A stretch of 64,000 nt of DNA from NCBI GenBank assembly GCA_964187785.1, contig OZ076409.1, positions 68,946,001 to 69,010,000 of the forward strand. Reading direction: 5' to 3'. This document shows, one piece after another, positions 17,601 to 64,000 of this stretch (its first letter is position 1; each line of letters begins with the position of its first letter). The notes under the pieces are model-generated. The model was not told the origin of the DNA, ran no database searches, and was given only the letters and a program-made list of their open reading frames with translations. A program made the position numbers and the translations under genes. Source of the DNA: Amphiscolops sp. MND2022. Lineage: Eukaryota.

Positions 17601-17723
17601 ATATCTGTAATGTAAATATTATATCTTATGTACTTAGATATGGGCAATATGATGTCATATAATAAGGGCCATGGTTGTGAGCAACCCTACGTTACTTGTA
17701 CTTTAATCCCTTCCCCCTTTGAG
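11427..17723. repeat. Tandem triplication of a ~2.1-kb unit (11427-13524, 13525-15624, 15625-17723)
   Basis: Three near-identical copies differing by scattered SNPs and 1-bp indels. Each runs from the outer end of LTR-C to the first 158 bp of LTR-A. Confidence 0.97.
12177..12278. repeat. Perfect 102-bp palindrome (also in units 2 and 3, near 14275 and 16375)
   Basis: agtaacaagttctg...gaaacctata|tataggtttc...cagaacttgttact; 51-bp arms, no spacer. Confidence 0.95.
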
Positions 17724-20982: not shown

Positions 20983-20999
20983 GACATTAACCAGGGTTT

Positions 21000-28685: not shown

Positions 28686-31600
28686 CTAAACCTCAGGGCT
28701 AGCTGCGCGCTCTCCAGCAGCTGTAAATCCGATCGCATCGTACAACGACTGACGGTATTCTTCATCCGCGACTACTCCTACATCATCCCACAGCATCTCT
28801 TCTGTCAAATCGGCTAAAGCTGTGAAATGACCAATTGACTCCGTAACCTCCTCAGGTAACGGCCCACTCACAGTTTCGAACTGTCTGATGGAATGCGTCC
28901 TCAAATAACTTAGAATACTTGAGCAAACACTTGTCGTGACATCACTGCTCAACCCTCCCACGCTGACGCAACTGATACCTGCTGGGAATACAGGTGTCTC
29001 ACCCAGACACATCAAGAAACGGAAGAAGCGTTGACACGATGAACTCTCACATGCCCGCAAAATGTCCACTGCTGAACTTGCACTGCTTACGGACATATCA
29101 ACTGCATTCTGCCTGAAGTTGGTCACGAATGAGACGAAGCTCCCATCAATTTGTCTCTTCTCAGCGAGTCCTATCCTCCCCAGATCCAGGAGCAATCCAG
29201 TAAATTGTTCAGCTTCATTTCGCAACACGTCAATTTCACCACGCAACAAAAGAGCAGGACAACCCTCACTCAAATGGTATGTCACTTCTTCTTTCATCCC
29301 GGAAGCAGCTAGAATGTCTTCAACCACTACAAACATGAAGCTTTGCACCATCGCCAAGTGTTCATCAATTACGGCAGCTTCTGCAACTTGCCCTAAGTAG
29401 GGACCAAATTCATCCCTCATGGTTCGCAACTTGGCATCTGACACAGTCAAATTGTCCACGTCCACTTCCAAGCAAGCCCGCACCTCGGTCACACTAGGCA
29501 GGTCATCGTCGTCTATCAGCTTGACTGAGATTGCGTGCACAAAACACGCACTCTCGTAGGCCCAATGAAAACTTCTCAATGGACAACTGCTGAAGCTCCA
29601 ACGATACGAATCGACGACTGAAAACAACAAAAATTAATGCAAAAAAAACCATAGTCAAGTCACACGCTCTCTACTCGATTCCCGAACCAAATATCTTTTA
29701 TTAAATTAAGACACTGTAAATAACGAAACGACATGGACCAAGAAAACAAAAAACATACATACGTGCACGAAAGACACTAGCTAAGGCCTGCAAACGGAAA
29801 GGGATAGCACGATCCCCACACAGCACAAAGTCCAAAGATTCAATGATGCCGGATCCACTAGGCACTCTCAACAGATTCGAGATCTCTGCCCAATTCTCAG
29901 ACAACTCAGCCAACACGTCCGGTACGTCCCAGAGGGTTACCTCTCCATCTAACACGGACTATAACAAACAAGAATTTATAAAAATAAAAAATTCCCAAAT
30001 TACACACGATACAACCACGAAAAGCATCACCCCCCCAAAAAAAATCGACACATCAGCATCAGTGAAAAATAATCGAAAAATAGCAAATAGTTACCTGCAA
30101 GAGCTTTGGACAAGTTAAAAAGATTGGGTCCTGGACGAATTCTTTTAGTCTTGATTGCAAATGGTTCAATATCGTATGTACATCTGTCCCGCCCATCACA
30201 CGAATGCTCGCATCCACCAGACGCTTGTTTAGCTCGGTAAGTTTTAACGACACAAGTGAGACTGTCCTGGGTCCAGAGCGGCTGACCAACACTCTTTCCA
30301 GCCCAGACAACAGTCGACAATTGAGGCCAACAGGTGTCAATTGCCCCACAGCGCAACACAACATATTGACAGCCCACGAGACCACTCGCTGCTCCCACTC
30401 TTGTCCATAAGCAAATGAAAAGACCACATAGTTCGCAGGCCCTTCCGAGGTACATACATTCAGCGTGCCCACCACTCTGTCCGCCACTAATGTGACACCG
30501 AAACTGCTGTATTCTGTTTCGGACCACGAACCAATTACTCGTCTCATCACAAACGGCCAGAGTCCAAGAAGAACAACGCTCTAAAACAAGATCATACATT
30601 CATCCTACAATCATCGTTTTACATTCTCATATAGTTACCTACTCACCACTCACTTAACACACACCCCAACTTCGTAATTTTTTTAAACAAAAATAAAAAA
30701 TTTTTTTCATACAAATACGCCAAAATTATCGGAAGTTTCACATGTACCATACAAATATCAATACATGCAACATGTAATTATTTCATGCATCCGGAAAAGA
30801 TTCATAATAACCAGAACGTCGGATTCTCGACAAGTCGCGCCAAACATGACAGCATGCTGCGAATTGGAGGCAACCATCAGGTCCCAAAGATGTCGCACAC
30901 TTGCAAAATTACAGTCCCGATAGACCGCATCAATCACTAGACACACGAACAACCGAAAACTGTCAGTGTGGTCGTCATCCTCTGCGACTAGCCTTGTGCC
31001 CCACACTGAACCATCACTCGCATCGATCTGCAGTGCCTCCAGAACAGTCACATCTGGACACGTCTCAATCAACGGCACTGACTCACCAATCAATGCGGCA
31101 CCACATACGTCTGCCTCGGCTTGGGACATCAGTGTCCCATCTCGTCTGCGCAGCGGTAGGCCCCTTCGCAATCGCGTCAGACAGTCCAGCCGGTGGTGTC
31201 TGACTCCCCGGCAGTGTTCAAAGAAGGTTGTTATACCGCGGCTACCGATCTTGACATCTTGCCTGCAGAGTAGACATCTCGCGTACGAATCGCGCGTCAG
31301 GTGATCCTTCGGGAAACCGAGCGCCAGTCCACAATAAGCGTGGTCAAACCACGCTGACTTGAGAATTTTCCTTCTTGAAATCAAAAGAACAACGAAAAAT
31401 GTTAACCCCATCCTCTACACATCCTAGAATACCGAAAAATAGAAAATCAACCGAACATTTCAAAAAAAAAACAAAAAACCTCACCCGGAGTGATGAAAAC
31501 ATGATGTAAAATAATATTTTCATTGGAAATATAAGCGAAAAACGAAGAAAAAACGGAAAGATGAAAAAGAGATGTGTTTGCAAGCCACCAGGACAGAAAA

Positions 31601-33480
31601 TTGAAACTTTAAAAGACGAAAGCCTCGAACGATGAAAAAGAGATGTATAGAACAACTTTGAACCAAAATTGAGATAATTTAGAACGAAAATAACTTAACG
31701 ATGAAAAAGAGATGTAAACTGAAAAGAAAACGACAAAAATGGCTAAAGACCGAGCAAGGAAAATTTTAAGGATGTAAAAGAGATGGAGAGTTATAAAAAA
31801 TGATCAGAAAAGAAAAACGCTATACTCAAGACTTTTAACGATGAGAAAGTGATGGAAAATGAAAAAACGGCAGAAAATCATATGAAAAACAGAAAAACGA
31901 TGGAAAATAGATGGAAAGGAAGAAAGACGTGAAAACACTGGTGAAAGTGGAAATGAAAAGAAATGAATAAAAGTTACCGATCAAATACTTCACAGAGTTA
32001 AAGATGTTTAGGTAACCTGGCAAGCGAGACGCAATGGGCTCGTCGTCGGAATCCACGAGACTGGGTCCCATGGGAGATGTCTCAGCAGACACAGGAACCA
32101 GACCAGGAACAGCACCTTCTGGAGCAGGCTCTGCAGACAGAGGATCACCAGCAGGGACATTCTCGGCTGCCTCTAGTAGGGTATCAGTGCTGTCGGCTGA
32201 CGGCACGTCAGACTGCTCGACGTCAGCCTCCAAAGTTCCAGAGACGCTAGCAGCTGGCGAAGAAGGAGCAACCGGAAGGGTGTCCACGGGAGGATCATAA
32301 ACTGTGGAAGTCTCGCCAGTTTCCACAACGGCCTGAATGGACTGATCAGCAACAGCCACGCAGGCATCGACCGCCACATCCACAAGAGTGACGACGGCAC
32401 TGACTCCTGTCTCTACGGTGATACGAACAGGAGGAGGAGGACTTTGAGTTGTTGATTCACGGTCCAGAAATCGCTGAAAGCTTGGCGAGAGCACAGACAC
32501 TGGGGCACGTGCCACAGGGGAGCTGATCGCGCCCAGAGACAAGTCCTGGAGGAACGAGGACATCTCCAGGGAAGAAGGCCCTCCTTGGGTAGCAGCGTCA
32601 ACCTGTGTTGCACCAAAGTCGCTCGTTCCTATACCCACGGAGTACGTAGTAGGGCGAGGCCTTGGGGCGTGGATAGGAGTCGGGCCTGAAAAAAGAAAAA
32701 CAGAAATCAGACGACGACAGATGATGAAGAGAGTGCGCGTACGCCGCGCGAAGAAAGAAAAACAGGAAACGAAGTCACCAAAATTTCACCCTCAAAATGG
32801 AATTCGGAAACGGATTAGCCACGAAAGGACAGTGAATGTCCATGACGCATCCCAAATTCATCTTAAAAAAAAAGAATTTTATAGGTAATCGACCGTGAAG
32901 GGCACTACATGCAGATGAGATGTTTACATCGGAATTACATCGGAGTGTCTGGACGATACCTTAGTACAGGCGGAAATGTGAAAGGGAGTCAACTCACTAT
33001 ACTGCTGGATGCTATCTCGTAGCATGTCCCGCATGTGGCGATCGTACCACTCGAAGGTGATGCTACCGAGGGAGGCATGCCAAGGATAGTGATCTAAACT
33101 TCAAACGGAAAGAGTCAACGTCTGAAGGGACCAGAGATGAGAAATGAAGAGATTGTGGACTGAATTGAAGATCTGGAAGGACAGAACTTACACTGCGGAA
33201 GATACGGGACATTGGGAGCCTGACCAAACGGTTGGTCAGGTTGAAACTGAAGTTCAGGAGCTGCTGCCTGAGCTTCGGGAGCCTCTTGGGGCGGCACGTT
33301 CTGCAAAGTGGTCAGCTCAGAGACGACACCGACAGATTGAACTGAGTCCGCTAAAAAGCCAAGACGCGTTTTCAGCACCTAATTGTTCCCCGACCCGTTT
33401 GTGAAAGAAAAGAAAATGGTGCACTTACTTTCTGTAGCTTCGGTCTCTGGAAGAGAATGAACGAAATGGATGTCAGACAT
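28686..33480 (-). CDS. Antisense, spliced accessory gene of element A (~1,066 aa; low-complexity N-terminus, zinc finger, hAT-transposase-like body)
   Basis: Exons 33480-33429, 33350-33192, 33093-32998, 32685-32017, 31423-30812, 30580-30095, 29958-29763, 29617-28686. All introns GT-AG with matching phases; one extra nt near 31380 must be assumed. Finger CLLC-x16-H-x5-H; homologous to 53408-57716. Confidence 0.8.
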
Positions 33481-34616
33481 CACTGTAAATTGCAAAACAA
33501 TCTGAAAAGGAACGGAAGAGAGTGAGGAAGGAACGAAATCGAAGAATCTGGTGACAAGAATTTGATCAGTAATTAAATGGCCTGATCAACCATGATTGCG
33601 GGATACAAATTCGCGAAAAATCTCAAAGAGCGCGGATGCAGCTTGAGTGCCAGGACAAACCAAATACTTGAAATTCAGAAGATGGAAAATCGATGAAAAA
33701 CTCCGATTTCAATGACTGCCTACACTTTTCTTCCTAAATCAAGCAACTTAACAATTTTCTCTGAAAATGAATCACCCCCCAGAATTTGACTACAAAAGCT
33801 TCAAGTATTTGATTTTGATGACAGCTGCCAGTCTCAGATCAATACCGATGAAGTTGAGCGGAAACGCGCAGAGGAAATCGTGGCGATTTTCAAACCGACT
33901 TGACGGAAGATGATTCAAGGATGAGAATATTTGTTGACAACCGGTTGGATTTCTTTCAGTTCAGAAAATTCAGTTTTCAACCAATCAGAATTAGCAGTGA
34001 TTGCTATGGCAACAGGCCATCTCTTTCTCATCGCTGAGATTTCAGACAGCGGAAGTAGCTTCAACGGTTACTATGGCAACGACTCATCTCTTTCTCATCA
34101 CGGAAGCTGATAGCAAAGCAACGGCGCCAGTCGTCTGCTAAATCAACATCGATGCCTCGCTGTGTAAACAATTCATCGTTCATTCATCCCCGACTCGCTG
34201 CCAATTTGTCAATGAAGCTAGTCGAATTGTTTATTCAGTGTAGGCGTTTTGGAGGGAAACTTTTCTCCGAGAAATCAGCTTCTACCAAAAATAACCAGCC
34301 GAAACTCCCATCAAAAGCATGACAACCAATAAAATGCAGATCAGCGGACATTCGATGGACCAAGAACTAGAGTTGCCGCGTCGATAAAATTTAACCGAAA
34401 TCACCCAGAATGAAACCAGACATGACGATTGCCGAAAGTCCTCTTCTCAGAGAAGATTTGCATAGGACGGAACAAACGAAGGACATGCCAATTCAGAACT
34501 AACGAAGGACATTTTCTCCCCAACCAAACCAAGGAAGCAGTCGAAGCCAACGCTGAGACAACCATTCTCTGCACATTTGGCCCCTGCACTCTCAATCCAA
34601 ATCCCGACCCGGGGAG

Positions 34617-36860
34617 TGTCATGCCAGCATGATGGAAATGTAATCTACTAAATATCTGTAATGTAAATATTATGTCTTATGTACTTAGATATGGGCAATA
34701 TGATGTCATATAATAAGGGCCATGGTTGTGAGCAACCCTACGTTACTTGTACTTTAATCCCTTCCCCCTTTGAGTGTGAGTTATATATATTTACTTAATA
34801 CTGAGCGCTCTAGTTCCGGTGTCCGCATAAATGATCTTGCCAGAATCTGGCCTTGAAAGTGCTATATTCCATAAATATTGGTTTGTCACGACAAGGGAGA
34901 GAAGTTTTCCGGTCAGACTGGACCGAGGAATATTGGAAGTAATGGAAAGTATAACTTCTACTAACTCCCTGCCTCAGAGTATGTAGTTGTTACAAATTCC
35001 ATTAAACTCATCACAATTTCATCGTCGAATTTGGTGACGATTTTGACCTGATCAGAAATGTCAATTGGATCCATCTGCGGATTCAACGGTGCTTTTAACC
35101 AAAGTTCATCGCAATCCCATCCTTAAAGTTTGCGAGTGAACAAAACATGGGACTTTAAACTGACTTTCATCATAAATCCATCAACGGATTTTATGGGACT
35201 TATTCTAGTAAAACTCATCTTTAATTCATCGTGATTATTTCATTTAGTAATTCCTGAATGTGCTTCTCATTTCTAAGGAACAGTAGTTCATCCTTTATTC
35301 ATCACATTCACTAGTACAGAAGGGAAATGAGAAAGTACATCCTTAATTCATCCTAAAAAAGAGTGAAAGTGCTGGTTATCTGATTTGTTTAGTAAACCCA
35401 TCCTTAATTCATCTTGATTCCGTTTGTGCTGAAAATAGACCATCTTAGCGGATGAGTTCATCCTAAACTCATCGCTAGATTGAATTGGCTTAGTATTCGG
35501 TGTTTTAACTGGTGAGTTCATCCTAAACTCATCGCCAATTTGTATTGCTTTGGTATTTGCTGTTTTAATTGACAAGTTCATCCTAAACTCATCACCAAAA
35601 TTCTCCTGTACTAGAATTAGCGTTTATCGACTGAATTCATCCCGAATTCATCGTCATTTGAATCTGTGCTAGAAATTGGCAAGTTATACATGGAGTTCAT
35701 CCTTTTGTCATCGTCAGTTTGAATTGTGTTGATTTCCGAGCGAGAAAGACTACCATTCATCGCATTTTCATCCAGAGCTAAACTAGACTTGGAAATCAGC
35801 AAATATTCTTACAGGTTCATCGCATTTCCATCTTCAAGTTTTAAATCATTGATTTTGGCGCTAGAATTAGCGGAAAACATCGTTTTCCCATCCCAAAGTG
35901 TGCTTTACCTTAAATTTGCTTGAAATTAGTGCGTTATTGAATGATTTGAGTCCATTTTAGTTGCTATAGAAACCATGATGTTATGTGCAGGCAATTGCGA
36001 CATTGTAAATTGATGACTAAACACCATTAACACATGTAAATGTACCATGGTGCGTGGCCACTTTGCGGCAGTTCACAACACTGGTCACGTGACTTACCAT
36101 TTTAACACCAGCTGGTAACAGCCAATGAGAGAAGGTTGGTAAGAGATTTAGCGTCTTACCAACCGAAAAGACACGTGAACTGCTGTAATTTGGTCCGCCA
36201 TTAAATATTACTCAGCCCGAATTGCGACAAGCTACCGACCAGTTGGATATTTTAACACGCGAAAGTCACAAAACACATCTGTATTTCATCTTCAGAAATT
36301 AAAGAGCTTAAACTGAGTAATTTCTTGGTACATCTACGACTGCGATAAAAATTGGATGAACTTCTCCTGAATAACTTGCTAGTTTTCCTTCTCCTTATCT
36401 AACTGCTTACTTATTTGTACGACTTTTTCTAAAACATCTCAGTTCAGATTAGTGAATTTGAGATCGAATATTCAGTTAAATCAGCAAAATACATTGAAAC
36501 AATATCTCAGATAATCCAGTCTTCACTCATAATTCTTTTCTCTCGAATACATGAACCCAGATCAAGGTACCGAACTTAGAAGCGGTAGAGTCATACATTC
36601 CTCGTCAGGAACATCCTCTCCAATAGATCCAGACATGGCTCAGTCGTCCGCCAATGACTCTGACAACAATGAAACTTCAGATATCTCGTCCCAGTTGTCT
36701 GAAATAAGAGAGAACTATGAGAAGAAGATAAATGAGTTACAAAGCGAATTTAGTCAACTGAAGAACTTATTAATGGCAGTTATTAGTAAAAATGACGAAA
36801 ATAACTTACCTTCGACATCGCAAAGTTCTTCAAAGCCGACCCACAGAGTGGGGTTAGACA
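34617..36860 (+). repeat. 3' LTR of element A (2244 bp)
   Basis: Preceded by GGGGAG (34611-34616), ends TTAGACA followed by TSD CCGAT; contains a copy of the Gag N-terminus from 36551. Confidence 0.95.
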
Positions 36861-50401: not shown

Positions 50402-50800
50402 TGTCGTAAGCACGGGGGTTCGTGCCCGTGAATCCGTCTTTGGGGCGGTCATTGGCCTGCTTACTCTTAGAATTATTCCTAGGTTCTAAGTTTTGCAGCA
50501 TTTCGGAATATCCTTCTGGTCTCTCGGCCGGAACGTTCCATCTCTCTTTGGTCAACTGTCCAGACCCGGCCATAACTGCGTTTTGGATTTGAGGCAAAAT
50601 TTGACTACTGATCGCTTCATTTATTGCCCTTTGAATCTGAACACTGACGCTGTTCATCATTTCGTCCATCTCTCGAGATAAACGGGAATTTAACTCGCTC
50701 GACAGTCTATTGATCGCAACACTTGAACTCTCCCTGATTGAATTTTGGCCTAATTCGGTATTTGGGCTAGGTCCATTATTTCACTGACACTCACATTTTC
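50402..50800 (-). repeat. Partial LTR (Gag-N-terminus-coding 3' part), probably the deleted 3' LTR of B
   Basis: Reading frame NRLSSELNSRLSREMDEMMNSVSVQIQRAI...RAYD ends at a TG..CA-type terminus as in A and C; no PPT or LTR 5' end found. Confidence 0.5.
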
Positions 50801-51710
50801 CACATATTATTGAAATGTTTACATACTCTAAAGGATCGTGAGATTTTACGAGGATTGGAAAATAGCTATTGCATCAAAGCGATTCAGGAATTTAGGGTCG
50901 GAAGAATTCCTGAGGAATGCACTCAATTACATACTCATGATGGCTTCAAAGTACGGGGGACGGTTTAGTCCGCATTCCCGTAACAATCAACATCAAGGCA
51001 AATACATGTTCAGACACTTCAAAGTAATATTTGTGTCAACAGGTATGTGAGATATCTAAGGCACGTGCCTGCACACGCAGGCTAATTCATCAGGTAGCAA
51101 CTCTAATTATATGCACTAATAAAAGGTGAGCGCGGCCCAATTCGGCCATTTGACAAAGGTACCAGCCAATTAAAGTGACCGGTTTAGTCCGCTGGACTAG
51201 TATTTAGAGTTTTATGACTGGTGGTCACAACTACATCAATTGGGTTTAAATAGCCCCATTAGCGCCTTCTAAATACAAATATAATCCTACATGACTTTAA
51301 ATAACATGCATACTCAAATTAAACAATTACAAAAGCTAATAGTCGGAATGGCCTAATCCGGCCATTTGCCTTTGGTTCGCTTACAAAATAAAGTATAGCG
51401 TCAAGTGGCCGTATACGGCCAAACAAATATGACAGTATAATGCACAGCAGGATAGAGCGTTCTGATTGGCTAATGAAATGAGCTCAAGTGACGTCTCCGG
51501 AATTGGAGTTTCGTTCACTTGAACTCGTTTCCTTTAAGCTTTACACTTGCCTTTATTACATTACGTCACTGCTAAACAATTCATCATATAAACATAATCA
51601 TCACCGTTTGAGTTCTAACACGGGTATTAATCAGACTAATATTCAATCCGAATACATAATGAATGTAATAAACCAACAGTGAGTTTTACTGAAAGTTTTG
51701 AATAATTCTC

Positions 51711-52502
51711 CTAAAATGTGGGTAGAGTGCCCGGTACGGCTTCTTGTTCGTTAGTAGTCGTTGTGATTCGTGTCCCATCGCAAGCGGCAGCCTGCGACAC
51801 TGCGGGTGCTAAGAAAAGAAGACTTCCGGCATGTAGACCATTTTCGTAGGCTTCTCTCCTCAAGTCCGTTATCTATGCCGGTTCATTGCGCGGTGTTGAT
51901 CTACTCATGTACCAATTCACCTTCTCTTGTTTAATTTCGTCCACTGATCTTCCACAGACCATACATCCACGGCCCAACTGTTTACTAAGATCCGAATACG
52001 GCTGTACTTGTTGGATGTGGTAAGATGCGTGGAAGCTGGTGCTAACTGGCTGTTCCATGAGCTTGTCTTGGGACGGCCCTCTCTCATGTTCGGGCGGAGA
52101 CAACGGCGATTCTAACACTGGCAGAATTGTGTTGCAAAGTTCTATCCGGGTTCTTTCTGCTTTTCTCATCGGCGCATACAGGAGTTTCTCGTCAAAGTGT
52201 TTGAATCCCAATTTCGGAGTCGAAGGCGGCCACATTTGAAGATTACTCGGTCCAGCTGCTGATTCTGTAGCCTGCTCCTCCACAGTCATCTTGCGACCTG
52301 CGATTAAAATTGGGCTTGACATGACTTCTCTATCGATTCTCTCTATGATAGCCTCGGTGTCCGTGGACCAATCGGAATCCCATGAGGTAGATGAGGTGCC
52401 TTCCTCCTCATCACTCGATAGGTAGATGACCGAATTTACGGAGGCTTCTGAGTCCGATTCTTCTAAGTCGAAAAGCCTTTTTGCTAAGTTAAATTTAGCC
52501 AT
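51711..52502 (-). CDS. Extra sense-strand ORF of element B, unknown function (acidic N-terminus, CxxC)
   Basis: MAKFNLAKRLF...SSDEEE...GCMVCGRS; TAG at 51873-51875, but the frame stays open to 51711. Confidence 0.55.
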
Positions 52503-53407
52503 TATTATCTTTTTTGCAATTTTGTTGATTCGCAGAGCGACTTGTTGCTTGCAAGGTTCAAAGTTGAATAAATTTGTCAAAATTTTCTTCAGACCAATTC
52601 AGGCTATTCTCCCGGAGTCCCATTTCGGCGGGAGAGACCATGGCCAATCGCCCTGATCCGTCGTAAACTTTCTAGAATGGAATTTCTCAGCGGCTTATTT
52701 ATCCTTTGAAATTCGGAATGGAACCCCCCTTTCTCACTCTCTCAAGTGAGTATGCGAAGGGGTGTTAAGTTGACAACAACAAATAATTCCACTTCGAGTG
52801 GGTAATCAACATCAAGCTTGATAGCAATTAACGGCACTTGTCGGATGAAACTCACTGAAATGGCTTCAGCCAATCGAATTTGAGTTTCGATAGATGTGGA
52901 AAATGAATAATAAAGATGGCAGAAAATAATAATTTTGAATAACTAAAATGGCGAAAATCTAACTAAGGTAACTAGGAAAACTGAACAAAACGGCAACATA
53001 AATTGGGGTAAACGGCCATAATCGGCCACTAATTGTAACAAGGTTGTAAATAGCGAGATACGTCCTGTACATTTCGCTGGCAGACTCCGTGTACAGATTT
53101 AAATATGTAGATAATCAAATAATATTAGTCTGGTAATTTTCTTCAGCCACGAACTCCAACTTTCAATCTCTTTGATTATTATTATATTCCAATTCCTTTT
53201 TACTCACGTAATTGTTATATTCGAATTGTCCATTCGTCTGAATCTTCGATAACGGTATACGATCGCTCCTGCTTTCGCTTCCACCGACAGCTATTCCCAT
53301 CGGATCATCTCCGACTTCCCTTCACCTTTAGCCGAGTTCGGCCTTATCCCCCAATTATCCAAGCCGATCTAGGACTGTTTCCCGAAACTCAGCGCTTCTA
53401 CGGCAAG

Positions 53408-56400
53408 ATGTCTTCTGATTCAGGTTGGTTTGGATTTTATAATTTGAACAAAGTTAACTTGATCCGAGCTAATTTGTCCGATAGGCGCTTCCTGTTTCCA
53501 TCAACTAATACGCGATAGCACGTTTCGTTCACGTTTCAAACACTTCCGGAAGATTTCTAATGCGGTTTAATGGATTCTTTCCAAGGAAGCTCACCGCGAA
53601 AATTCATCTCTTTCTGTTTAGAGAATCCAGTAGAAGAAACTCATTCGACACCAAATCCAACCTTTGTCCAAGTCTCTACCGCAATTGATGGCAAGGGTCC
53701 CAGGCCTGAGAATCAACTTGACCAACGGGCATCCTCAAAAGAAGATGATAGTGATGAAGACGTTAACGCATACGCTGCCAGCGTTGTGCGTCTGAAAGAG
53801 AAATCCCCAATTTTTGGGACAGAACAATCTGGAAACACTGAGGTCCAAGCCCAACAGACCCTAGAATCAGCAGTTACGGGCTCGGATATCGCAACCCAAG
53901 TCCGGACGAGTACCCCAGTACCAGTCGGTCCAACTGAGGCTCACCCCTCTAGTTTGACTTCCCTCGAGTCAGCTCTCAGGATTACTACCACAGCGGAGAG
54001 CAGCCTTCCAGAGTTGGTCCCAGTTACGACATCCCTCATCAGAGAACATTCTGGAACACACCTTTCTGCCGGCGAAGACACTTCATCTTCCATATATGAG
54101 GTCCCAGCACTGCCCGGATTGTCGGATCAAAGGATACTCCCGAACGAATTAAGTGACGCTGAAAAGACTGAAGATGAGATAAGTAGGTTGGGATATCATC
54201 ATACCCGAAATATTGCCTTTGGCGATCCAGAGTCAGGAACGGAGGGAGGAGACGAATCAGGTCCCGCTACCGAGATTACCAATCAGGCGGAACCCGGAAC
54301 TTCAGGACGTACGGTCAATGTCCCCACGCAGGAATTGTCGGGAAGGAGCAGGGCAATACTCAAACAATTTTTCGATGAAACGCCTCCATTTTCTTTGTCA
54401 GTTGGACATCCCACAGTGGCTTTTAGTGAGCCCCAATTATATCACCTCCTCAAAACTCTCACCAATGAAACACTGAGTCAGTCTTTCACAACCATGGAGA
54501 AGATGGTTTTAGGAGCAGTAAGGGGGGCCCCAGCGACTGCAGAGTCACGGACTGACCATTTTCGGTCTCGGCACCGAGCCCAAACTCCCCACCCTCGAAT
54601 GGACAGTGACACTAGCGAGGGAGGAACTGAGAGCGATTCGTACTTTGGTCCACCTGGTCCAGGTTCTTCAGGTACCTCAGCAGGAGAAGACATGTCGGTG
54701 AGTTATGGGGAATCGGACAGTGCAGCAGAAATGGCTTTGATTGCCGAGTCATTCCAGAAATCTACTGCCGATGGGTCCAAACAACGAGCCTCAGAAGCAA
54801 GGATCCCGGCCAAAATTGTTGACGCTGGAACCTCCAGTGAAATGAGTTGTCCCGATGAGACACTGTCCGCAATCAGGGAAGCAGCAAGTGAGGAGAGGAC
54901 TAACACAGCCCCTCAGATTAAGAAGACTAAAAGGAAATCTGTTGCAGTCCAACGTGGGGTCCCCATGCGGGAGGAGTTTTTCTCCAAAATTGGTTGGACG
55001 CGGTCCTTCATCTCCGGGCCTGCAGACCCTCTCCACAACCCTTGCATGGTGTGGTGCCACATCTGCAAGAAAAATATCTCTATAAAGACTAAAGGCACTT
55101 TCGAGATCATACGGCACCACAGGTCAGAGAAGCATTTGAGGCGCGATCAAAGGTGGAGATATGAACACCTTCGAAGTGTCGACCCCATCAGTGGAAAAGT
55201 TCAACACAGAGTACGAGGCCGGAACGGGAAGGTGTTGACTAAAATTGAGCTTGCCAAGGAGCTCCCGAAATTTATCCATGCCGAATTGGTGGACATAGGG
55301 GAGCGTTTCCCCTTTTATGACGATTTCCTTAAAGGAAGCTCTACAGCGCTGGTGACACCTGATTCGCGGGCCAAAACCCAAATCTGTATCATCTCGGACT
55401 ACATCCAGACGCACGGCGACCTGTCTTTACTTCGCAATTTGTGGGCAAGGATTGGGTCCTTCACAAACTACCAGGCTACGCTTTGTGATTTTGACTGGGG
55501 CGAAGAACGTCTCACTGTAAGTATAGTCTTCATTGACCGCTGGAAAAAGAAGGGGGGGTCGTATTAATCGTTATTGAGTATTCGTGTTTTTCAGGCCATA
55601 TTCCAGCATATCTTCAATTGTGCAATGGACGACATCTCCCAGGTGGTAGCTGCCGAACAATGTTTCTCAGTAGAGTTTGAAGACTACGGTAGTTATCGTC
55701 ATATGAGTGTACGCTTCTGGAAAGACGAAAAGTTGTGTCGCGTGTTTACATGCCGTAGTAAGCTCCCATCACCGCAACTCACAGGGGAGCTAGGATCACT
55801 GTCTCGGTTCCTTTCCGTGGTCTCCACCAGAGCAGACATCGTGGCGTGTTCTGGATGCTCAGTGGACTTTGTACGCACTCTTGACCATTGCAGTTACTTC
55901 CCCAGAGGAGTCCAAAGCTGTTCCCGATTCGAGCACTTGTCACTGTTCACACTGATGCATAAAGGAAGTTACAGCGTCTTTGGAAAGATTGACTTCTTTT
56001 CAGTGTTGCAAGCCCTCTTGGTCTCATTGGGAGGGTCTCAAACAGAGGACTGGGTCCTAGAGTCCCCCGAACTTCATCGGGTTGGTATGACAGTTAATGT
56101 GAATCACGGGTTCAAAATAAAGGCAGAGGTTTCACTCCCGTTCTATTATTCTAGGCAATCTCTTCATGCAAAATTGACCTTAAGGGCCTGCCCACACTGT
56201 GCACAGAGCTGGTCAACCAATGGAAGAATGTGCGCACTTATCTAACCGTTCACTCGGCCAGACAAGAAGGTCAAGGAGTCCGAAGCAGAGTAAGTCTTTC
56301 GTCCTAATCGTTCCACATCGTGGTTGATTCAGAGTTCCCTTGGTCTTTTACAGGCCACTAATTTCTTACTGATTGTTAACACGGTCTTTGTGTTTCACAG

Positions 56401-57716
56401 GTGCAGAGTTTTGAGTAGTCGCTCATTTGTGACGAGTTTATCACTGTCAAACTCGAGTTTTTCCAACGACTTGTCAGCGATTGTTAGTGGTTTCTTGTAG
56501 TTTCCTTTTGTTTTGTTCTGCTTGTTTCGGACATTTTCCTTTTATGGTTGTAGATTTATCCAGCTTCGTAGTCAACCTCCACCAGCGACGTGACGCATCC
56601 TTCTATCTGTTTGGTGAGGCTAGCCAATTTGTGTACCGGCTCTGTTCCCGCTGTTTCACCCCTGATACTGTCCCCTTAGAAAATTCCTGGTTCCATCTCA
56701 TGGGATTCAAAACATCGGAAGGAAAATTCAAAGAGGTGGAGGACTTCCTGATTCGGCTGAAGCTCTCTTCGAAAGTTGCTGCAGCCAGTAAAATCAAGGC
56801 TGAAGGGCTCTTAGTTGGCAAGAAACCTGATAAGGCCACAATCCAGAAGACCGTCAATGAAGTGAAGAGTGATTTTGTCCAGGAGGCACTCAGTTTCATC
56901 AAGCACGTGATAGAGGGAGTGTTACATCAGGTGGGGCTGAATTCCCACTTGGTCCAAGGCTTGGCAGCTTTCAATCCTCAGATCTTGTTTAGCCGTCCAA
57001 TTGATGTTGCTTTGCGGCATTTTGAGGTGCTCTATAACACTTTCCTGCAACGATCTTGGGTCACAAGCGCTGATGAATCTTCTTATCGCGAAGAATACCT
57101 CGGTCTGGTAGACCATTTGCGAATTACTTATCCGGCTGACTTCAACTTCACCGATTTATCTGCTGATTTGATCGAATTCCTCATGGGAGTTGATTTCCTC
57201 CGTTCTAAACCACGACTTCTCCGTCTCTTCAAGTTGTGCTGTCTGTGCATTACGGCTTGTAGTAGAGAATTCCCTCCTGTTACTTTTGGTAACAATGGTC
57301 TTGTAGGCCCTCATGGAAGGTTCACTGATGTCGTGTTGCCAGGACAAAGTTATTTGTCTGGGGTTCCCGATTCAATCCCATTCTGCAGTCAGGATTCAAG
57401 TCTGCCAAAATTCTCCTTGCTTGCCTCTGATTTCGGAAGGGCAGCCTTCGCCCCCACTTATGATCCTTGGGATTATGTGGACACGTTTGGGCGATCCAAA
57501 ATCTATAAGTCCTTACTTTCGTCCTACAAGGTAGCGGCAGCAGGCCCTCAAGGAAACGTTGTCAGCTTGGATCCCCGAGAAGTTTCTCCTATACCTGAGC
57601 AGTCTGCCTTACAGATCCCAAGTAGTACAAAGAGAAGACGGATGGGCACTACAAAGTCTCGGTCTTCTAGTTCATCTGTCACCAGTGTTCCCACACCCTC
57701 AACTTCTAAGAAGTAA
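53408..57716 (+). CDS. Antisense, spliced accessory gene of element B (~1,258 aa; low-complexity N-terminus, zinc finger, hAT-transposase-like body)
   Basis: Exons 53408-53423, 53622-55516, 55595-56080, 56155-56289, 56401-56482, 56554-57716. All GT-AG and in phase (3777 nt); one in-frame TAG at 56416. Finger CHIC-x16-H-x5-H. Confidence 0.82.
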
Positions 57717-57960
57717 CTTGTACATGTGTATTTATGTACGCTAGTTCACAAACTTTGTTTATTCTTTGTTGTATTTATTCTTTCGTTTGCCTTTGATTTC
57801 TGTTTCCTCATTGTTTGTATCTTTCACCCCCGTATTTATTTATTTTGAAAGGGGTCCTTCATTCGTCCCATTATTTATTCAAAAGATACTAGAGGGACTG
57901 GAAAAAACGGAAAAAAAAGATAATAAGAAAGAACTCCCATTTTCGGGAAGAATTCAATCT

Positions 57961-60900
57961 TTAGTATCTGAAGTCTTCTGAGTAGTTTGGATTAGGGTTA
58001 GGCCTGAGATTATATTTCCCTCCTCTAGGGCTCAGACTTTCATTTCTAGCATCGCTTTCGGATATTTCGGACACGATAATATCATCCCCCCTTTTTGGAG
58101 AGGTTTGTGCATCGTTTTCATTCATTGAATTTCTTTCTGAAAAAATTTCATCATTTTCCGGTCCACCTGCCGTACTCGGCAAAGAATTTTCTTGGTTTTT
58201 TGGGGAAACGGCCGGATTCGGCCAATCAGATTTGGTATTTTCTGTCACTGCAGTAGCTTTATTTCTTTCAGTGACGTCATCATCTAAGCGTTTATTCCGG
58301 CTGTGTGCCGCGTTGTCGTTGTTTAATTCTTCTCGCGTGATTATGTAATCCGCTTCGGTCTCGTCTACGTCATTTGCATTCGTTTCCGCCGTGTTCGGCT
58401 GTTCGCCATTCGGCAGGCTAGTCGGAATAGGAGTTCTGCCTCGCGTGACTAGCTGTTCGCCAAAATCAGTTTCCCACGTTATGATGTATAAATCATCTTG
58501 CGGAATTATAATTTCTTCATCTGGCTGCAACTGTTGTTCTCGGAAATTGTCCTCTAGCGGTTGATTGGGGACAAACTTTTTCAGGCGAATCCGATGCAAA
58601 ATTTGAGTTTTGTTTGTATTAAGCCGTCGTACTATGTAGTTTTCATTTGGTAAAACTTTTTGGACTATAAATGGTCAAACCCAGCGGTAATCTCGGAAGG
58701 GAATCTTTGATCCTTGATTGTCCGCTTTCGGCTGTAGGACGAAACAGTACTCATTCTCCTTTAATGGAGCAGCTTTTGCTTTACGGTCGTAATATTCTTT
58801 GTATTTAATATACGATTGCATGATATTCTGCTTCGTCTTGTCAATCAAGGCTTTAGTCCGGTTTTGGATTTCTTCTGCAAATTCGGTTGTAGGGTTGATC
58901 TTTTCGTTTGGATTATTTCCAAGCTTGTGATCCAGAATGTTATAGGGAATTCTGCCATGGAATACTCTCGTTGGCTCACAACCAATACTGGCATGATAAC
59001 TCGTATTATGATTAAGTACTGCTAATGGCAAATATTTATGCCATTGTCGGCGGTATTCCCCACATGCCATTTTGAGGTTTGTTTTCAACGAGGCATGGGT
59101 CCGCTCCAATTTCCCAATTGTTTGCGGGTGTTTTGTCGTTGCACATTTGAGTGTTATGCCCAAAATCTGCGTAATCTCCGCAATAATGGTAGAAGTAAAT
59201 GCAGTACCCTTATCAGTAATAAGAGTCGTTGGCAGATATGTATGTTTGGTCATTATATCAATGAGCGCTTTTGCCACATTGATCGCTGATGCATCCGCAA
59301 GAGGGTAAGCGAATAAATATCTGGAGAAAACATCAATTGCCGTTAGGACATTTTCATACCCTCCACTTGGGGGAAGATTCGGCAATAGGTCAATCTGCAT
59401 GGCGTCTTCAGGTCCAAGGTCCCATTCGGGCAAGTTGAGCAGCTCAGGTGTGATCGTTGCGTTAGGGACTCTCTTGTCTCTGGCACATTGTTCACACCCT
59501 TCTACCCACTTTTTGACGTGTTTAGCCAGGCTAGGGTAGTAATACCTTTGTCTGATTTCCTGCAACATTTTTGAAATCCCGGGATGTTTATGCGCTGTCC
59601 CGTGAAGGGAGTGAAGCAATTCCCGAAGTAGGTGTTGCGGGAGCAAAATCTGATGGTATTTAACATTCCCTGTTTCATCAAAATATTGCCTCGTCAGGAT
59701 TTCGTCCTTGAGTACAATTCGTTCCAGATTATTTGCATAGTGTCTATATCGGGCATCCTGTTGCAGTATGTTTTCTGAATAGTCTTCATGAAGGAGCTTT
59801 GCCTTCAATTGTTGCAATACTGCATCTTTGGACTGCTCGATGATTATCTGGTTTGTTTTCTTCAATCGGACTTGAATGTCTGGTTGTTGTTTGACCAGAT
59901 TGATTGACAGAGTTTCTATGGTAACTGTGGGCTCATCAGTCATTGGATTTTTCCTGATTGCTTCTTTTCTTGCCCAATACTGTTCCTCTGTCTCGTCATC
60001 ATCATTCGTATAGAATATTTGTTCTTCCTGTGATACCCCCGCAGATTGGACATTTATCTCAATGGGTAAAGTCTGCACGTCCTCACGGATCTTCATGATT
60101 AATTTATCCTTCGGATCTGCCTCCAATCGGGACAAATAGTCAGCCGCTGTGTTCTGTGCTCCCGGGATATGCGCTATGACAAAATTGAACTGAACCACAT
60201 AATCGCATGCATTCCACAGGGCTGGGGGTATTATTTTCGTTTGGAAAAATCTCGTAACGGCTTTGTTGTCGGTAAGGATAATGACCGGTTTGGGCGCACC
60301 CCAGAATATATGTCCAAATTCTTTGAATGCAAAGTAAATTGCCAGAAATTCCTTGGCATATATTGACATTTTGATCTGGGCTGGGGTGAAGGTTTTTGAT
60401 CCATAGGCCACTGGTGCGTAGGATTTTCGGAGAGATGTGAATTTCTGGTTTGGATCGTCCTCTATTAAGACCGCATATCCAGCTGCACCAAAACTTGCGT
60501 CAGTCATTAGTGCGATTTGTTTGTTTGGGATAGGCTGTTGTAGGGCTAAATCGCAACATTTGTCGAGTGCTTTGTTGATTTCTTCGAATTGTTGGACTAA
60601 TTCTTTCGATACTAGGACCTTTTCGTCACTTTTGAGCATCTTGTAGAATGGAGCAAGGCGTTCGGAGAGTCTTGGGACATAATTCCTGTAGTAGTTTAGG
60701 AATCCCAAATAGCGCTGTAAAGCCTTTTTCGACTTCGGGAATTTAGTCTTTTCCAGGAAGTTTTGCACATTCTGTTTCTGGGGTTTGACGCCTTGTGGGG
60801 TAATAGTCCGTCCGAGAAAATCAATTTCTTTTGCACCGAAGTGACATTTGTGCATTGTTAACTTAAGGCCTGCTTCCTGTATGCATTTGAATGTAGCTCT

Positions 60901-63174
60901 CAGGTTCATTATGAGGTGGTCAACATCATTGGCTGCGATGCCGATATCGTCCACATACTTGGCACACTGATCTGCTTTGATGACTTTGTCGAGGTATTCC
61001 CTCATGAAACTTGAGAATGCGGATAGTGAACGGCTAAGGCCTTGTGCCAAACGTCTGTAGGCAAATGTGCGACTGGCAAAATTGAAAGCTAACATTTCGA
61101 TTGAGCGTTGGTCGGCCATTGGTAGGCGGTGGTATGCCTGCGAACAGTCTAATTTACAGAACAGTTTTTTGCCTGCCAAGTGTTGGGCAGCATCAACCAA
61201 GGTGCTAACAGGGTGATTATTGTTGATATAATCATCCGAGATGAGGTTGTTGATTTTTCTCAAGTCAACCAAAAGTCGTAGCTTCCCATTTGGTTTCTTT
61301 TGGGCGAATATTGGGCTTGCATACTTTGAGAACGGTAGTGTGGTTATTATGCCATATTTGTGCAACATGGCTAATTCGACTAGGATGTCCTCCTTCAGAT
61401 TGATAGGAGCTGGAAGGCTTTGACTATAGGCTGGGGAATCGTCCTTAGGTGTCAGTTTCACTTTGAATTCCTCGTTCATGCCTATATCAAATCGGTGTCG
61501 TGCAAAGATGTCATGGAATTCCACTAACAATTCTTCAATTTTCTCCTTCTCTTCAGGAGTAAGGGTGGAATCTTTCCAGTCAAAGTTTTCTAAGAATTTT
61601 GCACGCGATTCTGCATCTGTGGTGGGGTCGAGTGTCTCCAGGTCCTGTAAGGCCTGTAACTCGCGTAGGATTCGTTTTTGTATAGGTGTGTGTTCCTCAG
61701 GATTTCCAGGGTTTTCTGGAGTTGGGAACCAATAATTTTCGGAGTTTTGTGGATTTCTATTGGTTTTGATGAGACTGCTGACATAATGGGCCGCTTGCTC
61801 CTGGTCATTCTGCAAAAGGTGCCAGGTTGATGCCGGGTCTACCGGTTTGACATACTTCATCTGTTCTGGCGTCATGACAGAGAAATTGGCAATATGTAGT
61901 CCCTTTTTGAGTTTATAAGGGTGGTCTGTGAAGTTGCTCACTGGTATCGATATATCGCCGTCATTCAGAGTGACCAAGGCTGGGCAGAATGTGATGTCTT
62001 TTTCTTCATGTAGGAGGTCGCTCGGTTGCAAAATCCCAGTGACAGCATTTTCAGGGTATAGTAAGGAATTAGTCCGGATTAGGACTCTGTCATTTGGCGG
62101 GATGGTTATTTCAGCAGGGTTGAGTATTGGTTCAAGTACGTTTGAGTACTTATGGTCAGCTGTTTTGAGCTGCATTGAAAAGAACGGGAAATTCAAAATT
62201 CCTTGTCTCATGTCCAGTACTGTATGATTTCGTTGAAGGAACATTAGGCCGATAATCGGACCTGTCAGGTGTTCCATGACTAGAAAAATCTCATGAAACT
62301 CAATGTCACCAACTTCAAATTTGAGCTCTATGGTACTCTTAGGAGTTTCCAATTGCCCATTAGCAACCATGATTTGGAAATTTGGAGGTGGACCTTCCCG
62401 GATAACAGATTGTGGAGATAGGAGTCGAATTTTCCGGAGGTCCATCTCAGGAATTGCACTGGACAGCGCTCCAGTGTCGATAAATCCGTCTATGGTCAAC
62501 TCCCCAAAGTCCATGGGGAAGTACAACATGCGTTTTTTGCATTTGAGATTGATGTTGGTTGACAATGGTACACAGTCTGGTTCACCGTCCCTGGTGATTA
62601 AGATATTCTGGAATTGCTTCTCGTCTAATAGTGATTGTGGTATGGGTTGAGCAACGTCTTCATGGGTCTCTGTCCCTAATGGGTTTGGGAACACTGGATG
62701 GTTGGTGCCATCATTCATTTGCCAGTTTTCAACTAGTGCTCTGGTCTTTTTATTGTGGGTGATTGGAGGGTTCTCGTGGACTGTTCTATTATAGTGCTCG
62801 ATGTCGTCTAAGACATATTGAAATTGTAGTTGTTCCTGGTTGTAGATTTCTGTGTCCCAATAAGGGTCTCTGCCGTAGTCTGGATCTATGTAGGTAGGGT
62901 TGTAATTGTCAACCAGGGGAATAGGCCTGAATCGGGTAGTGAAGGTAGTGGTATAATCAGGGTCCCAAACAGGAATTGGTTTTTGGAACAAATGTGTGTT
63001 GTTATATGTGATGGTTATTGCTTTATCCATCTGTTGCTGCCAGACAACAGAGGGATAGCCCATCAATTGCTGATTGTAATGGTGGAAAGTTTGCGTTGGA
63101 GGGTCCGATCTGATGTATTGTCGGACAGATATTAGTTCGTTATATTGGAGTCGTGGCGAAGTTACTTTTTTGAC
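57961..63174 (-). CDS. pol: Pol of element B (PR, RT, RNase H, IN); one frameshift near 58675 in the C-terminal region
   Basis: 1463-aa ORF with FIDTGA, KYVDDIG, MTDASFGAAG, ILTDNKA, HGTAHKH..C..C, DLLPNLP, TDKGTAF, GKLERTH; frame open from 63174. Confidence 0.96.
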
Positions 63175-64000
63175 TCATCATTATGATATGAGGATTGGGA
63201 GCCCGATGATGTCGATTTGGTCTGGGGTTTCTGAGCCTTTGGATTGGGCCTATTGTCAGTTGAGTCCTCAGGTCTAGTGCGTTTGGGTTTAAGATGTGCA
63301 CCAGCACCTTGCCAACATCGTTCTTCCGGGTGGTTCTTTTTGCCACAAGTTCCACACTCCGGGTATGTTTTCTTCTGAGTTGACTTGCCTTGTTGGGCAT
63401 CTTTCTCTTTTTTCTTTTTCAGTTTTTCGCAGTCTTTGACCATGTGGCCTTTTTCCTTGCAATAATTGCAAGTAATGTCTGACATTTGCCCAGTGGACAG
63501 AGGAGTTTTAGATTTTGTAGTCGAGGAGGTCATTGTGGCCATTGGTAGGTCATCTGATTCCTCAAGGGCGTTGAGTTCCAACTCTCTCTCCAAATGAGCA
63601 ACAATTTCATCATATGAGCCATTTTCTAGTCTGGCCATGTTGACAGACCGCTTCAACTTAGGTGGCAATTTTGCATAGAGCAAGCTGTCAATCATTCTCT
63701 GTGCATGATCACCAAACGCCTTCTCGGCTCCCTGGTTTAATTCTTCGAGAAAATCAGGCAGCTTCATCGTATTGGGATCGAAGACTAGGCGGTGCCATAT
63801 ATGTTTGGCAGTCGCCTGTGATTCGGGTTTGACGTATTTCCGTCTAAAGATGACTAGTACGTCCTCTAGAGTTTGTCGGTTGTTTGAGCTGATATTTCTG
63901 AACGTCTGAAGAGCATTCTTCCTCAATAAAGAGTGGAAGTGATTGATCTTCATTTGTTCAGTCATTTCTGGCTGCATCTTGATCATAGTGTGAAATAGGT
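63162..64000 (-). CDS. gag: Gag of element B (N-terminus outside the window)
   Basis: CNYCKEKGHMVKDC and CGTCGKKNHPEERC knuckles; homologous to the Gag of A. Confidence 0.92.
   Translation of the reverse strand, partial: LFHTMIKMQPEMTEQMKINHFHSLLRKNALQTFRNISSNNRQTLEDVLVIFRRKYVKPESQATAKHIWHRLVFDPNTMKLPDFLEELNQGAEKAFGDHAQRMIDSLLYAKLPPKLKRSVNMARLENGSYDEIVAHLERELELNALEESDDLPMATMTSSTTKSKTPLSTGQMSDITCNYCKEKGHMVKDCEKLKKKKEKDAQQGKSTQKKTYPECGTCGKKNHPEERCWQGAGAHLKPKRTRPEDSTDNRPNPKAQKPQTKSTSSGSQSSYHNDESKK

What the first reader, a model, noticed from the sequence alone, without database searches (positions are those of the whole stretch)
50958..58400. Element B has a different, palindromic spaced motif GGCC-N6-GGCC
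Seen: exact copies at 51134, 51350, 51407, 53014 and 58210, and variants at 50958 (GGAC..GTCC), 51177, 51728, 53330 and 58387. They lie in non-coding DNA, upstream of the accessory gene, and in the low-complexity tail of integrase. I did not see the A motif arrayed in B. Inference: each family has its own motif matched to its own diverged zinc finger, a lock-and-key co-evolution between protein and cis-sites.
Basis: partly seen in the sequence, partly recalled or inferred. Interest (0 to 1): 0.75.

Follow-up and report, generated by a model that had tools for sequence, protein, structure and literature searches.

The report
Retrotransposon lineages with private DNA tags
One of two related jumping genes in this animal DNA carries five exact and about ten weaker copies of a short near-mirror-image DNA word, the other carries a different word, and their extra zinc-finger proteins differ at the positions predicted to read DNA, so each lineage likely tags its own copies for its own regulator, although binding is untested.

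Summary
The motif is real. Five exact GGCC-N6-GGCC copies sit where stated (0.13 expected). All five extend to an oriented 15-mer, GGCC-N5-CGGCCA, the top gapped word of element B (0 of 200 nulls). A matrix from them finds 15 further sites in B (4.3 expected), only at this spacing, and no excess in element A, which has 58 GATG-N7-GATG sites that B lacks. Corrections: three exact copies lie in B's 3' LTR; weaker sites also occur in pol; two-mismatch variants are mostly chance; B's sites are sparse, not arrayed. B is a Ty3/gypsy element with an antisense gene that likely derives from a hAT transposase. Its finger and A's are homologous, and the positions matching Hermes' base-reading N67/R70 are fixed and different (B: E/R, 114 of 115 each; A: T/E, 59 of 59). 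The integrase-tail site is a conserved WPNPA island in relatives. Best reading (0.5): clade-specific self-recognition sites, working like VANC/TnpA. It rests on two elements; no sister DNA was reachable; a near-match occurs in an unrelated repeat. The scan noted the accessory gene on other DNA of this genome and a similar self-tag in a fungal element, but no returned note had this motif.

The parts
50402..51799 (-). 3' LTR of element B (this copy lacks the first ~71 codons of the gag head that sister LTRs carry; junction near 50781)
   Evidence: LTR end: 13 of 14 sister ORFs agree up to PRAYD and then diverge. Missing head. LTR start at 51799 inferred from TG..CA ends with a 7-of-9 inverted repeat (sequence); the 5' LTR is outside the window.
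50402..50780 (-). remaining part of the gag-head ORF inside the LTR
51134..51148 (+). exact site GGCC-N5-CGGCCA, in the LTR
51350..51364 (+). exact site, in the LTR
51407..51421 (+). exact, fully palindromic site in the LTR, 40-80 bases from CCAAT-like (51462) and CRE-like (51489) words (labels recalled)
53014..53028 (+). exact site about 380 bases upstream of the predicted start codon of the antisense gene
58210..58224 (+). exact site in the integrase tail; encodes WPNPA on the coding strand
   Evidence: conserved island in relatives
53329..53343 (-). strong variant (16 bits) about 65 bases upstream of the predicted start codon of the antisense gene
50558..50572 (+). variant (13.7 bits) in the gag head in the LTR
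50746..50760 (.). variant (11.8 bits) in the gag head in the LTR
51176..51190 (-). variant (11.9 bits); shares 13 bases with the variant at 50957
50957..50971 (-). variant GGAC..GTCC (8.9 bits), still palindromic
58168..62938 (.). scattered weaker sites in the integrase tail and pol (58168, 58719, 59371, 59418, 60282, 60939, 61027, 62071, 62924; 10.4-12.6 bits); in excess as a group, uncertain singly
51873..52502 (-). extra sense ORF ('ORF Z'), acidic and serine-rich, with one CxxC; rival binder
   Evidence: no family at the curated cut-off
53408..57716 (+). antisense, intron-containing accessory gene, likely hAT-transposase-derived; first coding exon 53408-53423 and acceptor at 53621 read from the sequence, untested
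55055..55135 (+). C-x2-C-x16-H-x5-H zinc finger; E515 and R518 (ORF numbering from 53561) at the positions of Hermes N67 and R70
57961..63174 (-). pol (protease, RT, RNase H, integrase), with an in-frame stop at 58675 before the integrase tail
63177..64000 (-). 3' part of gag; the element runs off the window
   Evidence: read from the sequence
17563..36860 (+). element A, the comparator: 2.25-kb LTRs at 98.8% identity, antisense homologous gene, 58 GATG-N7-GATG sites in 19808-36860

Best explanation
The oriented near-palindrome GGCC-N5-CGGCCA is enriched along element B, densest in its LTR and ahead of its antisense gene, and is likely the binding site of B's own zinc-finger accessory protein, which likely descends from a hAT transposase and would use these sites to recognise B-clade copies and keep them transcribed or unsilenced. 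Shown: the motif, its spacing, its absence from A, A's different motif, homology of the two fingers, and fixed clade-specific residues at the positions matching Hermes' base contacts. Inferred: two fingers read two half-sites one helical turn apart (10 bases in B, 11 in A), as Hermes BED fingers read an imperfect palindrome; the bound protein acts on the LTR promoter and on its own promoter (feedback); changes in the finger and the sites were selected together between clades. Whether it activates, protects from silencing or represses is open; activation is the more likely by analogy with VANC and TnpA.
For: Enrichment: (0 of 200 family-wise nulls). Training sites removed: 15 extra sites vs 4.3 in B (0 of 150), 2 vs 2.6 in A (107 of 150). 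Native spacing only: 15 vs 2-8 at seven other spacings, null 4-5. Reciprocal: 57 A-matrix hits in A, 0 in B at 14 bits. Fingers homologous: hhalign 91%, E 1.1e-6, 19% identity; zf-BED weakly matched by 10 of 31 A-type members, best E 0.002. Same C-x2-C-x16-H spacing as Hermes C51/C54/H71 (PMC10368747 section 7); N67/R70 positions are E/R in 114 of 115 B-type fingers each and T/E in 59 of 59 A-type; they fall on a predicted helix (residues 50-56 of the model). Tail site: WPNPA in 88 of 120 relatives, 106 of 118 with letters compatible with an exact site, best of 134 five-residue windows among 33 representatives under 75% identity, the query included; the commonest change (P to E, 9 rows) falls on the motif's free letters. 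hAT-derived fingers often prefer CGG-containing words (PMC8097297).
Against: Only two elements compared at DNA level; no sister DNA obtained. B's sites are sparse (0.37 exact per kb), and no tandem array lies in 50402-64000, whereas VANC and TnpA need dense clusters (PMC5735166 Results; bioRxiv 2026.08.24.746577 main text part 1). A core two letters from site 51134 is conserved in 4 copies of an unrelated dispersed repeat; A's LTR has one 13.9-bit site; the left flank shows an excess at 8 bits (12 vs 6.2, 2 of 150). WPNPA may be a protein motif: DYIIT is as conserved, and codons of relatives were not seen. 0 of 34 B-type proteins match zf-BED; the finger model is poor (pLDDT 56); two neighbouring contact positions (Hermes T65, S66) vary freely among B-type fingers. 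hAT origin is moderate here: Atlas score 0.89 (lead only), Hermes Z 5.5, no Foldseek match.
Confidence: 0.5

Rival explanations
1. The sites are bound by a host transcription factor that element B has recruited; the accessory finger has other targets.
For: Three exact sites are in the LTR among CCAAT-like and CRE-like words (labels recalled). A near-match is conserved in an unrelated dispersed repeat (4 copies). Two sites continue as GGCCATTTG, reminiscent of YY1 sites (recalled). A carries two X-box-like words near its antisense promoter, so these elements do appear to use host factors.
Against: I recall no animal factor with GGCC half-sites 10 bases apart (no motif library was available to test this). 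It does not explain the reciprocal A motif or the clade-fixed finger residues. No excess in host flanks at 10 bits (4 vs 1.8; 2 vs 1.7).
Confidence: 0.2
2. The sites are small RNA hairpins (GGCC pairs with GGCC around a six-base loop) in the genomic RNA, used as packaging, export or dimerisation signals and read by Gag or by the finger acting on RNA.
For: The motif's own stem is in the minimum-energy fold of 6 of 8 windows, kept by a G-U pair at 53330 and by a double change at 50958. The half-site CGGCCA is strand-biased in B, 11 to 1. H-x5-H fingers of the matrin/JAZ type bind RNA (recalled).
Against: Any palindrome folds so by construction; only 3 of 8 windows fold better than shuffles (z -2.4 to -3.0), one of them without the motif's stem. 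Variants at 50558, 50746 and 51176 break the stem. Extra sites at 10 bits or more are 8 on + and 7 on -. A's motif is a direct repeat on both strands (33 and 43) and cannot be a hairpin.
Confidence: 0.12
3. The sites are self-recognition tags, but the reader is ORF Z (51873-52502) or another element protein rather than the hAT-derived finger.
For: B has ORF Z with a CxxC pair and no significant counterpart in 1-49000 by tblastn (best E 0.88).
Against: ORF Z has no recognisable DNA-binding domain. A has the stronger motif and shares the finger gene with B.
Confidence: 0.1
4. The copies are chance words, old local duplications and protein-level constraint (WPNPA), with no common function.
For: The plain 8-letter word is not significant after full correction (0.24); two-mismatch variants are mostly chance; 50958 and 51177 share 13 bases.
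Against: Family-wise test 0 of 200; independent extra sites at native spacing only; spacers differ among the five exact copies, which are spread over 7 kb.
Confidence: 0.08

Closest known systems
VANC proteins of Arabidopsis VANDAL (Mutator-like) transposons (PMC5735166; abstract and Results read)
   Same: Element-encoded accessory protein; short motif enriched in its own family, different between families, often in one orientation; protein and sites proposed to co-evolve.
   Different: VANDAL is a plant DNA transposon; VANC has DUF1985/DUF287 domains and removes DNA methylation; its motifs are unspaced 8-9-mers in dense tandem arrays. Here: animal LTR retrotransposon, hAT-like finger, spaced dyad, sparse sites in B, binding untested.
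TnpA of Spm elements and transposase-derived regulators (bioRxiv 10.64898/2026.08.24.746577; abstract, main text part 1 of 3 and passages)
   Same: A transposase-derived protein without catalytic role binds clustered family-specific motifs and activates cognate copies.
   Different: There the regulator stays in a DNA transposon of its own kind; 'LTR' does not occur in that main text. Here a hAT-like protein rides in a retrotransposon.
hAT BED domains on subterminal repeats (Hermes, PMC10368747; passages and section 7) and CGGBP-type hAT domesticates (PMC8097297; parts 1-2 of 3)
   Same: Same cysteine-histidine spacing up to the first histidine; two fingers read an imperfect palindrome with a strong and a weak half; hAT-derived fingers have diverse, often CGG-containing specificities.
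   Different: Hermes reads adjacent AAGT/AAGC halves next to a terminal inverted repeat and is CCHC; here the halves are 10 bases apart, there are no hAT ends, and the finger is C2H2 with H-x5-H.
Retand (plant Tat) Ty3/gypsy elements with antisense TRP28 ORFs (PMC11963269; passages)
   Same: Antisense ORF between pol and the 3' LTR, predicted DNA-binding, with family-specific repeats in the same region.
   Different: TRP28 (PF04195) is not matched here; the passages read propose no link between the protein and the repeats.

Membership tests
Ty3/gypsy LTR retrotransposon | protease-RT-RNase H-integrase order in pol | tested here: met
   Pfam hits in this order
Ty3/gypsy LTR retrotransposon | LTR at the 3' end with TG..CA termini | tested here: met
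   end fixed by 13 of 14 sister ORFs; start inferred from the sequence
Ty3/gypsy LTR retrotransposon | 5' LTR, primer site and target duplication | not testable with these tools
   element B runs off the window; no genome held
VANC-type anti-silencing system | element-encoded accessory protein besides the mobility enzymes | tested here: met
   conserved antisense gene, 207 relatives of the finger region, 430 of the last large exon
VANC-type anti-silencing system | short motif enriched in the own family and rare in related families | tested here: inconclusive
   met for the two elements in the window; no other full-length copies at DNA level; near-match in an unrelated repeat
VANC-type anti-silencing system | motifs in dense tandem arrays | tested here: not met
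   B: 0.37 exact per kb, no tandem array in 50402-64000. A does meet it: 19 of 57 gaps are 55-65 bases.
VANC-type anti-silencing system | DUF1985/DUF287 domains, Mutator-like host element | tested here: not met
   no such Pfam match; the element is a retrotransposon
VANC-type anti-silencing system | protein binds the motif and relieves silencing of cognate copies | not testable with these tools
   needs binding and expression assays
hAT transposase / BED finger | C-x2-C-x16-H zinc finger with the recognition helix before the first histidine | tested here: met
   115 of 120 B-type and 59 of 69 A-type proteins have the spacing; helix in the model; weak zf-BED match in 10 of 31 A-type and 0 of 34 B-type
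hAT transposase / BED finger | hAT core fold (insertion and C-terminal domains) | tested here: inconclusive
   model pLDDT 86; Hermes 8edg Z 5.5, rmsd 5.4, 161 aligned, tied in Z with short helical matches but the only row of 50 above 100 aligned residues; Atlas 0.89 to DUF4371/hAT clusters
hAT transposase / BED finger | DDE catalytic triad | not tested
   earlier notes report it lost (e1-8616659 and others); not re-examined here
hAT transposase / BED finger | sites are subterminal repeats next to terminal inverted repeats | tested here: not met
   sites lie in an LTR, a promoter region and coding DNA; no inverted repeat of 40 bases or more within B
Retand/TRP28 antisense ORF | TRP28 (PF04195) domain | tested here: not met
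   no match

The most novel reading that the evidence does not exclude
An animal LTR retrotransposon lineage captured a hAT transposase, kept its finger as a private transcription or anti-silencing factor, and split into clades in which a two-residue code in the recognition helix (E/R versus T/E) co-evolved with entirely different spaced sites (inverted GGCC pair versus direct GATG pair) written into LTR, promoter and even pol: a VANC-like self-recognition system in animals with a readable protein-DNA code.
Probability: 0.35. Interest if true: 0.85.

Novelty: new variant of a known kind. Interest (0 to 1): 0.62.

Why it matters
The sequence-specific self-activation systems I read about (VANC, TnpA, Mu transposase) are plant DNA transposons. 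Six literature searches (listings only) showed no title or abstract start on an animal LTR retrotransposon that encodes a transposase-derived factor with clade-specific sites. If true, it gives a natural series of hundreds of finger variants with matched sites, names the sites and residues to test, and offers a mechanism for how very abundant LTR families (one pol cluster has 1,547 members) escape host control.

Tried and rejected
No genome held. No sequencing run was listed for B. DNA of relatives: viral contigs gave no locus; metagenome contigs gave none for the finger; prokaryote genomes gave none; the alignment of the last exon was too diverged to scan with. The RT query gave 15 short gag-pol fragments from another assembly (49-69% identity, 31 kb) with 0 copies of either motif and no clear dyad of their own. 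They lack LTRs and accessory genes, so they test little, and their assembly could not be searched. Pairing tails with accessory proteins by equal contig length was inconclusive (12 of 120 B-type vs 4 of 69 A-type, p 0.42). The count of 8 for GGCC-N5-CGGC counts two sites twice (6 distinct), so it was replaced by the distinct-site test. Fold search of the finger model: nothing at Z 5 or more (poor model). Foldseek for the last exon: no match at E 0.001. PDB sequence searches: 0. Homodimer prediction of the finger region: no answer, not used as evidence. The exact look-up of ORF Z began one codon late and says nothing. The exon-junction check used a wrong offset; the first exon is read by eye. 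The sigma-70 scan is irrelevant to a eukaryote. Anti-methylation as the specific mechanism is not favoured: CpG o/e is 0.97-0.98 in the flanks and 0.81-1.01 in A and B's LTR, though 0.68-0.71 in B's coding parts; a search on acoel methylation gave nothing direct (listing only). Sequence look-ups in earlier findings returned nothing.
Full report
Context. The window is eukaryotic repeat-rich DNA with two Ty3/gypsy elements. A (17563-36860, + strand) has LTRs of 2.25 kb at 98.8% identity. B lies on the minus strand and runs off the right end; its pol carries protease, RT, RNase H and integrase in that order. Their pol proteins are 39-51% identical over the matched segments. Each has an antisense, intron-containing gene between pol and the 3' LTR. 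Earlier scan notes call the host an acoel and the antisense protein a catalytically dead hAT transposase; the host was not verified here.

The observation. Five exact GGCC-N6-GGCC copies exist, at the stated places and nowhere else in 64 kb; 0.13 are expected and 0 of 100 shuffles reach five. Because the word was picked by eye, I corrected for search: p 4.6e-7 over about 524,000 dyads is 0.24, not significant. The five copies, however, all read GGCC-N5-CGGCCA on the + strand, with a loose AWTC core. This 4+6 word is the best gapped word in B (5 distinct sites, 0.020 expected, p 2.7e-11); the best word in each of 200 third-order Markov nulls never reached it (minimum 8.5e-10). So the motif is an oriented imperfect palindrome with a strong half (CGGCCA, 11 on + and 1 on - in B) rather than a plain palindrome.

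Independent sites. A matrix from the five copies, with those copies removed, finds 15 further sites at 10 bits or more in B against 4.3 +/- 1.9 expected (0 of 150 nulls), 2 against 2.6 in A (107 of 150), and 4 against 1.8 and 2 against 1.7 in the two host flanks (20 and 74 of 150). At 8 bits the left flank shows an excess too (12 vs 6.2, 2 of 150). Within B the excess is in the LTR-to-promoter region (5 vs 1.1) and in pol/gag (8 vs 1.5), not in the accessory gene body (1 vs 1.1). Changing the spacer removes it: 15 at the native spacing, 2-8 at seven others, null 4-5.

Where the sites are. B's 3' LTR ends at 50402: 13 of 14 listed sister ORFs (cluster of 18) agree with the window up to PRAYD and then diverge, each into its own flank. 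Its start is inferred at 51799 from TG..CA termini with a 7-of-9 inverted repeat. This copy lacks the first 71 codons of the gag head found in sisters, and they are nowhere in the window, so there is a junction near 50781; a deletion is simplest, but a foreign piece within 50781-51799 cannot be excluded. Three exact sites and four variants lie in this LTR, one exact site and the best variant lie 380 and 65 bases before the predicted start of the antisense gene, and one exact site lies in the integrase tail.

The reciprocal motif. A has 58 GATG-N7-GATG sites in one copy, on both strands, many at about 60-base intervals; B has none exact and no matrix hit at 14 bits. A's system is nine times denser than B's.

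The fingers. The A and B finger regions are homologous (hhalign 91%, E 1.1e-6, 19% identity). zf-BED is weakly matched by 10 of 31 A-type proteins (best E 0.002) and by 0 of 34 B-type. In Hermes the zinc ligands are C51, C54 and H71, and N67 and R70 make the key base contacts, with R63, Q64, T65 and S66 helping; two fingers bind an imperfect palindrome without touching (PMC10368747 section 7). The same C-x2-C-x16-H spacing is in 115 of 120 listed B-type proteins (120 of 207 found were listed) and 59 of 69 A-type. At the N67 and R70 positions B-type has E and R (114 of 115 each), A-type has T and E (59 of 59 each); the T65 and S66 positions vary in B-type and are nearly fixed in A-type. E and R suit C and G bases (general knowledge), and hAT-derived fingers often prefer CGG words (PMC8097297; its motif figures and supplements were not seen and may bear on this). 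The mapping rests on spacing and on a low-confidence model (pLDDT 56) that puts both residues on a helix. For hAT origin, my own tests are moderate: Atlas hits to DUF4371/hAT clusters at 0.89, a lead only; a confident model of the last large exon (pLDDT 86) aligns to Hermes at Z 5.5, rmsd 5.4 over 161 residues, tied in Z with short helical matches but the only row of 50 above 100 aligned residues; Foldseek found nothing.

A proxy for sister copies. No DNA of B-clade copies could be fetched. The site at 58210 encodes WPNPA. Among 120 listed tails (of 452 found) 88 keep WPNPA, and 106 of 118 with letters there are compatible with an exact site (one of the 12 misses is a mis-cut protein). It ranks 2nd of 134 five-residue windows in the variable tail and 1st among 33 representatives under 75% identity, the query included. 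Its alanine is 96% conserved against 45-87% for the 11 other alanine columns, and the commonest change, P to E, falls on the motif's free letters. This fits selection on the DNA word across the clade, but a short protein motif would look similar (DYIIT is as conserved), and codons were not seen.

Against. n = 2 elements. B's sites are sparse, while VANC and TnpA need dense clusters (PMC5735166 Results; bioRxiv 2026.08.24.746577 part 1). A dispersed repeat unrelated to B has a conserved core CGGCC-N-AAGTCG in 4 copies, two letters from site 51134, which fits a host factor, or an element whose own transposase reads a related word; VANC6 motifs likewise occur in an unrelated element. The RNA-hairpin reading is not excluded.

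Mechanism. Most likely (0.5) the accessory protein binds these sites with two fingers one helical turn apart, marks B-clade proviral DNA, and promotes transcription from the LTR and from its own promoter or shields them from silencing. Enrichment, exclusivity, finger homology and residue pattern are shown; binding, dimer state and sign of regulation are inferred. Flank CpG is not depleted (o/e 0.97-0.98), so the silencing opposed is more likely chromatin- or small-RNA-based than DNA methylation (inference).

Comparison and novelty. It works like VANC/TnpA if the inference holds, but is not a member: other domains, other element class, no tandem array in B. The closest retrotransposon case is Retand with antisense TRP28 and family-specific repeats, where the passages read make no protein-repeat link. 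Six searches (listings only; open-access library) showed no report of this arrangement. Papers seen: PMC5735166 abstract and Results; PMC10368747 passages and section 7; PMC8097297 parts 1-2 of 3; PMC11963269, PMC9911081 and PMC12859917 passages; the bioRxiv preprint abstract, main text part 1 of 3 and passages; no supplements were opened. Labels for CCAAT, CRE, YY1, X-box and matrin-type fingers are recalled. Verdict: observation confirmed and sharpened, interpretation partly supported at clade level, new variant of a known kind, interest 0.62.

Noticed in passing
window 2395-2490 (+), 40465-40560 (-), 43660-43755 (+), 48175-48270 (-): Dispersed repeat, 66% mean column identity, with a conserved core CGGCC-N-AAGTCG two letters from B's site at 51134; class unknown.
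   Followed up: partly
window 34000-34013 and 34067-34080: Two X-box-like words (RFX type, label recalled) near the likely promoter of A's antisense gene; 0.04 expected.
   Followed up: partly
window 17563-36860: A's GATG-N7-GATG sites form 60-base arrays: mostly CATC-oriented in the LTRs, GATG-oriented in three internal non-coding clusters, with 9 more in gag-pol.
   Followed up: partly
window 50781: B's 3' LTR lacks the first 71 codons of the gag head that sister LTRs encode.
   Followed up: partly
window 19480-19820 and 36533-36860: A's gag frame starts about 310 bases inside the LTR and reads through the LTR edge; B-clade LTRs encode a 198-residue gag head.
   Followed up: partly
window 11425-17723: Three tandem 2.1-kb units at over 99% identity before A's 5' LTR, each ending in the first 160 bases of the LTR and holding a perfect palindrome of about 100 bases (12177-12278 and copies).
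   Followed up: no
window 51873-52502 (-): ORF Z, acidic and serine-rich with one CxxC, between the antisense gene and the 3' LTR; no Pfam family at the cut-off.
   Followed up: no
window 57961-58030 (-): The integrase tail ends in a highly conserved YNLRPNPNPNY motif (89-98% per column in relatives); A's tail ends in a similar YKLRENPTP.
   Followed up: no
window 44759-46362, 47121-47261, 48878-48956: Long inverted-repeat (MITE-like) elements and hairpins between A and B.
   Followed up: no
L001-L015: A second assembly holds gag-pol fragments of this retrotransposon group at 49-69% RT identity, without either motif.
   Followed up: partly
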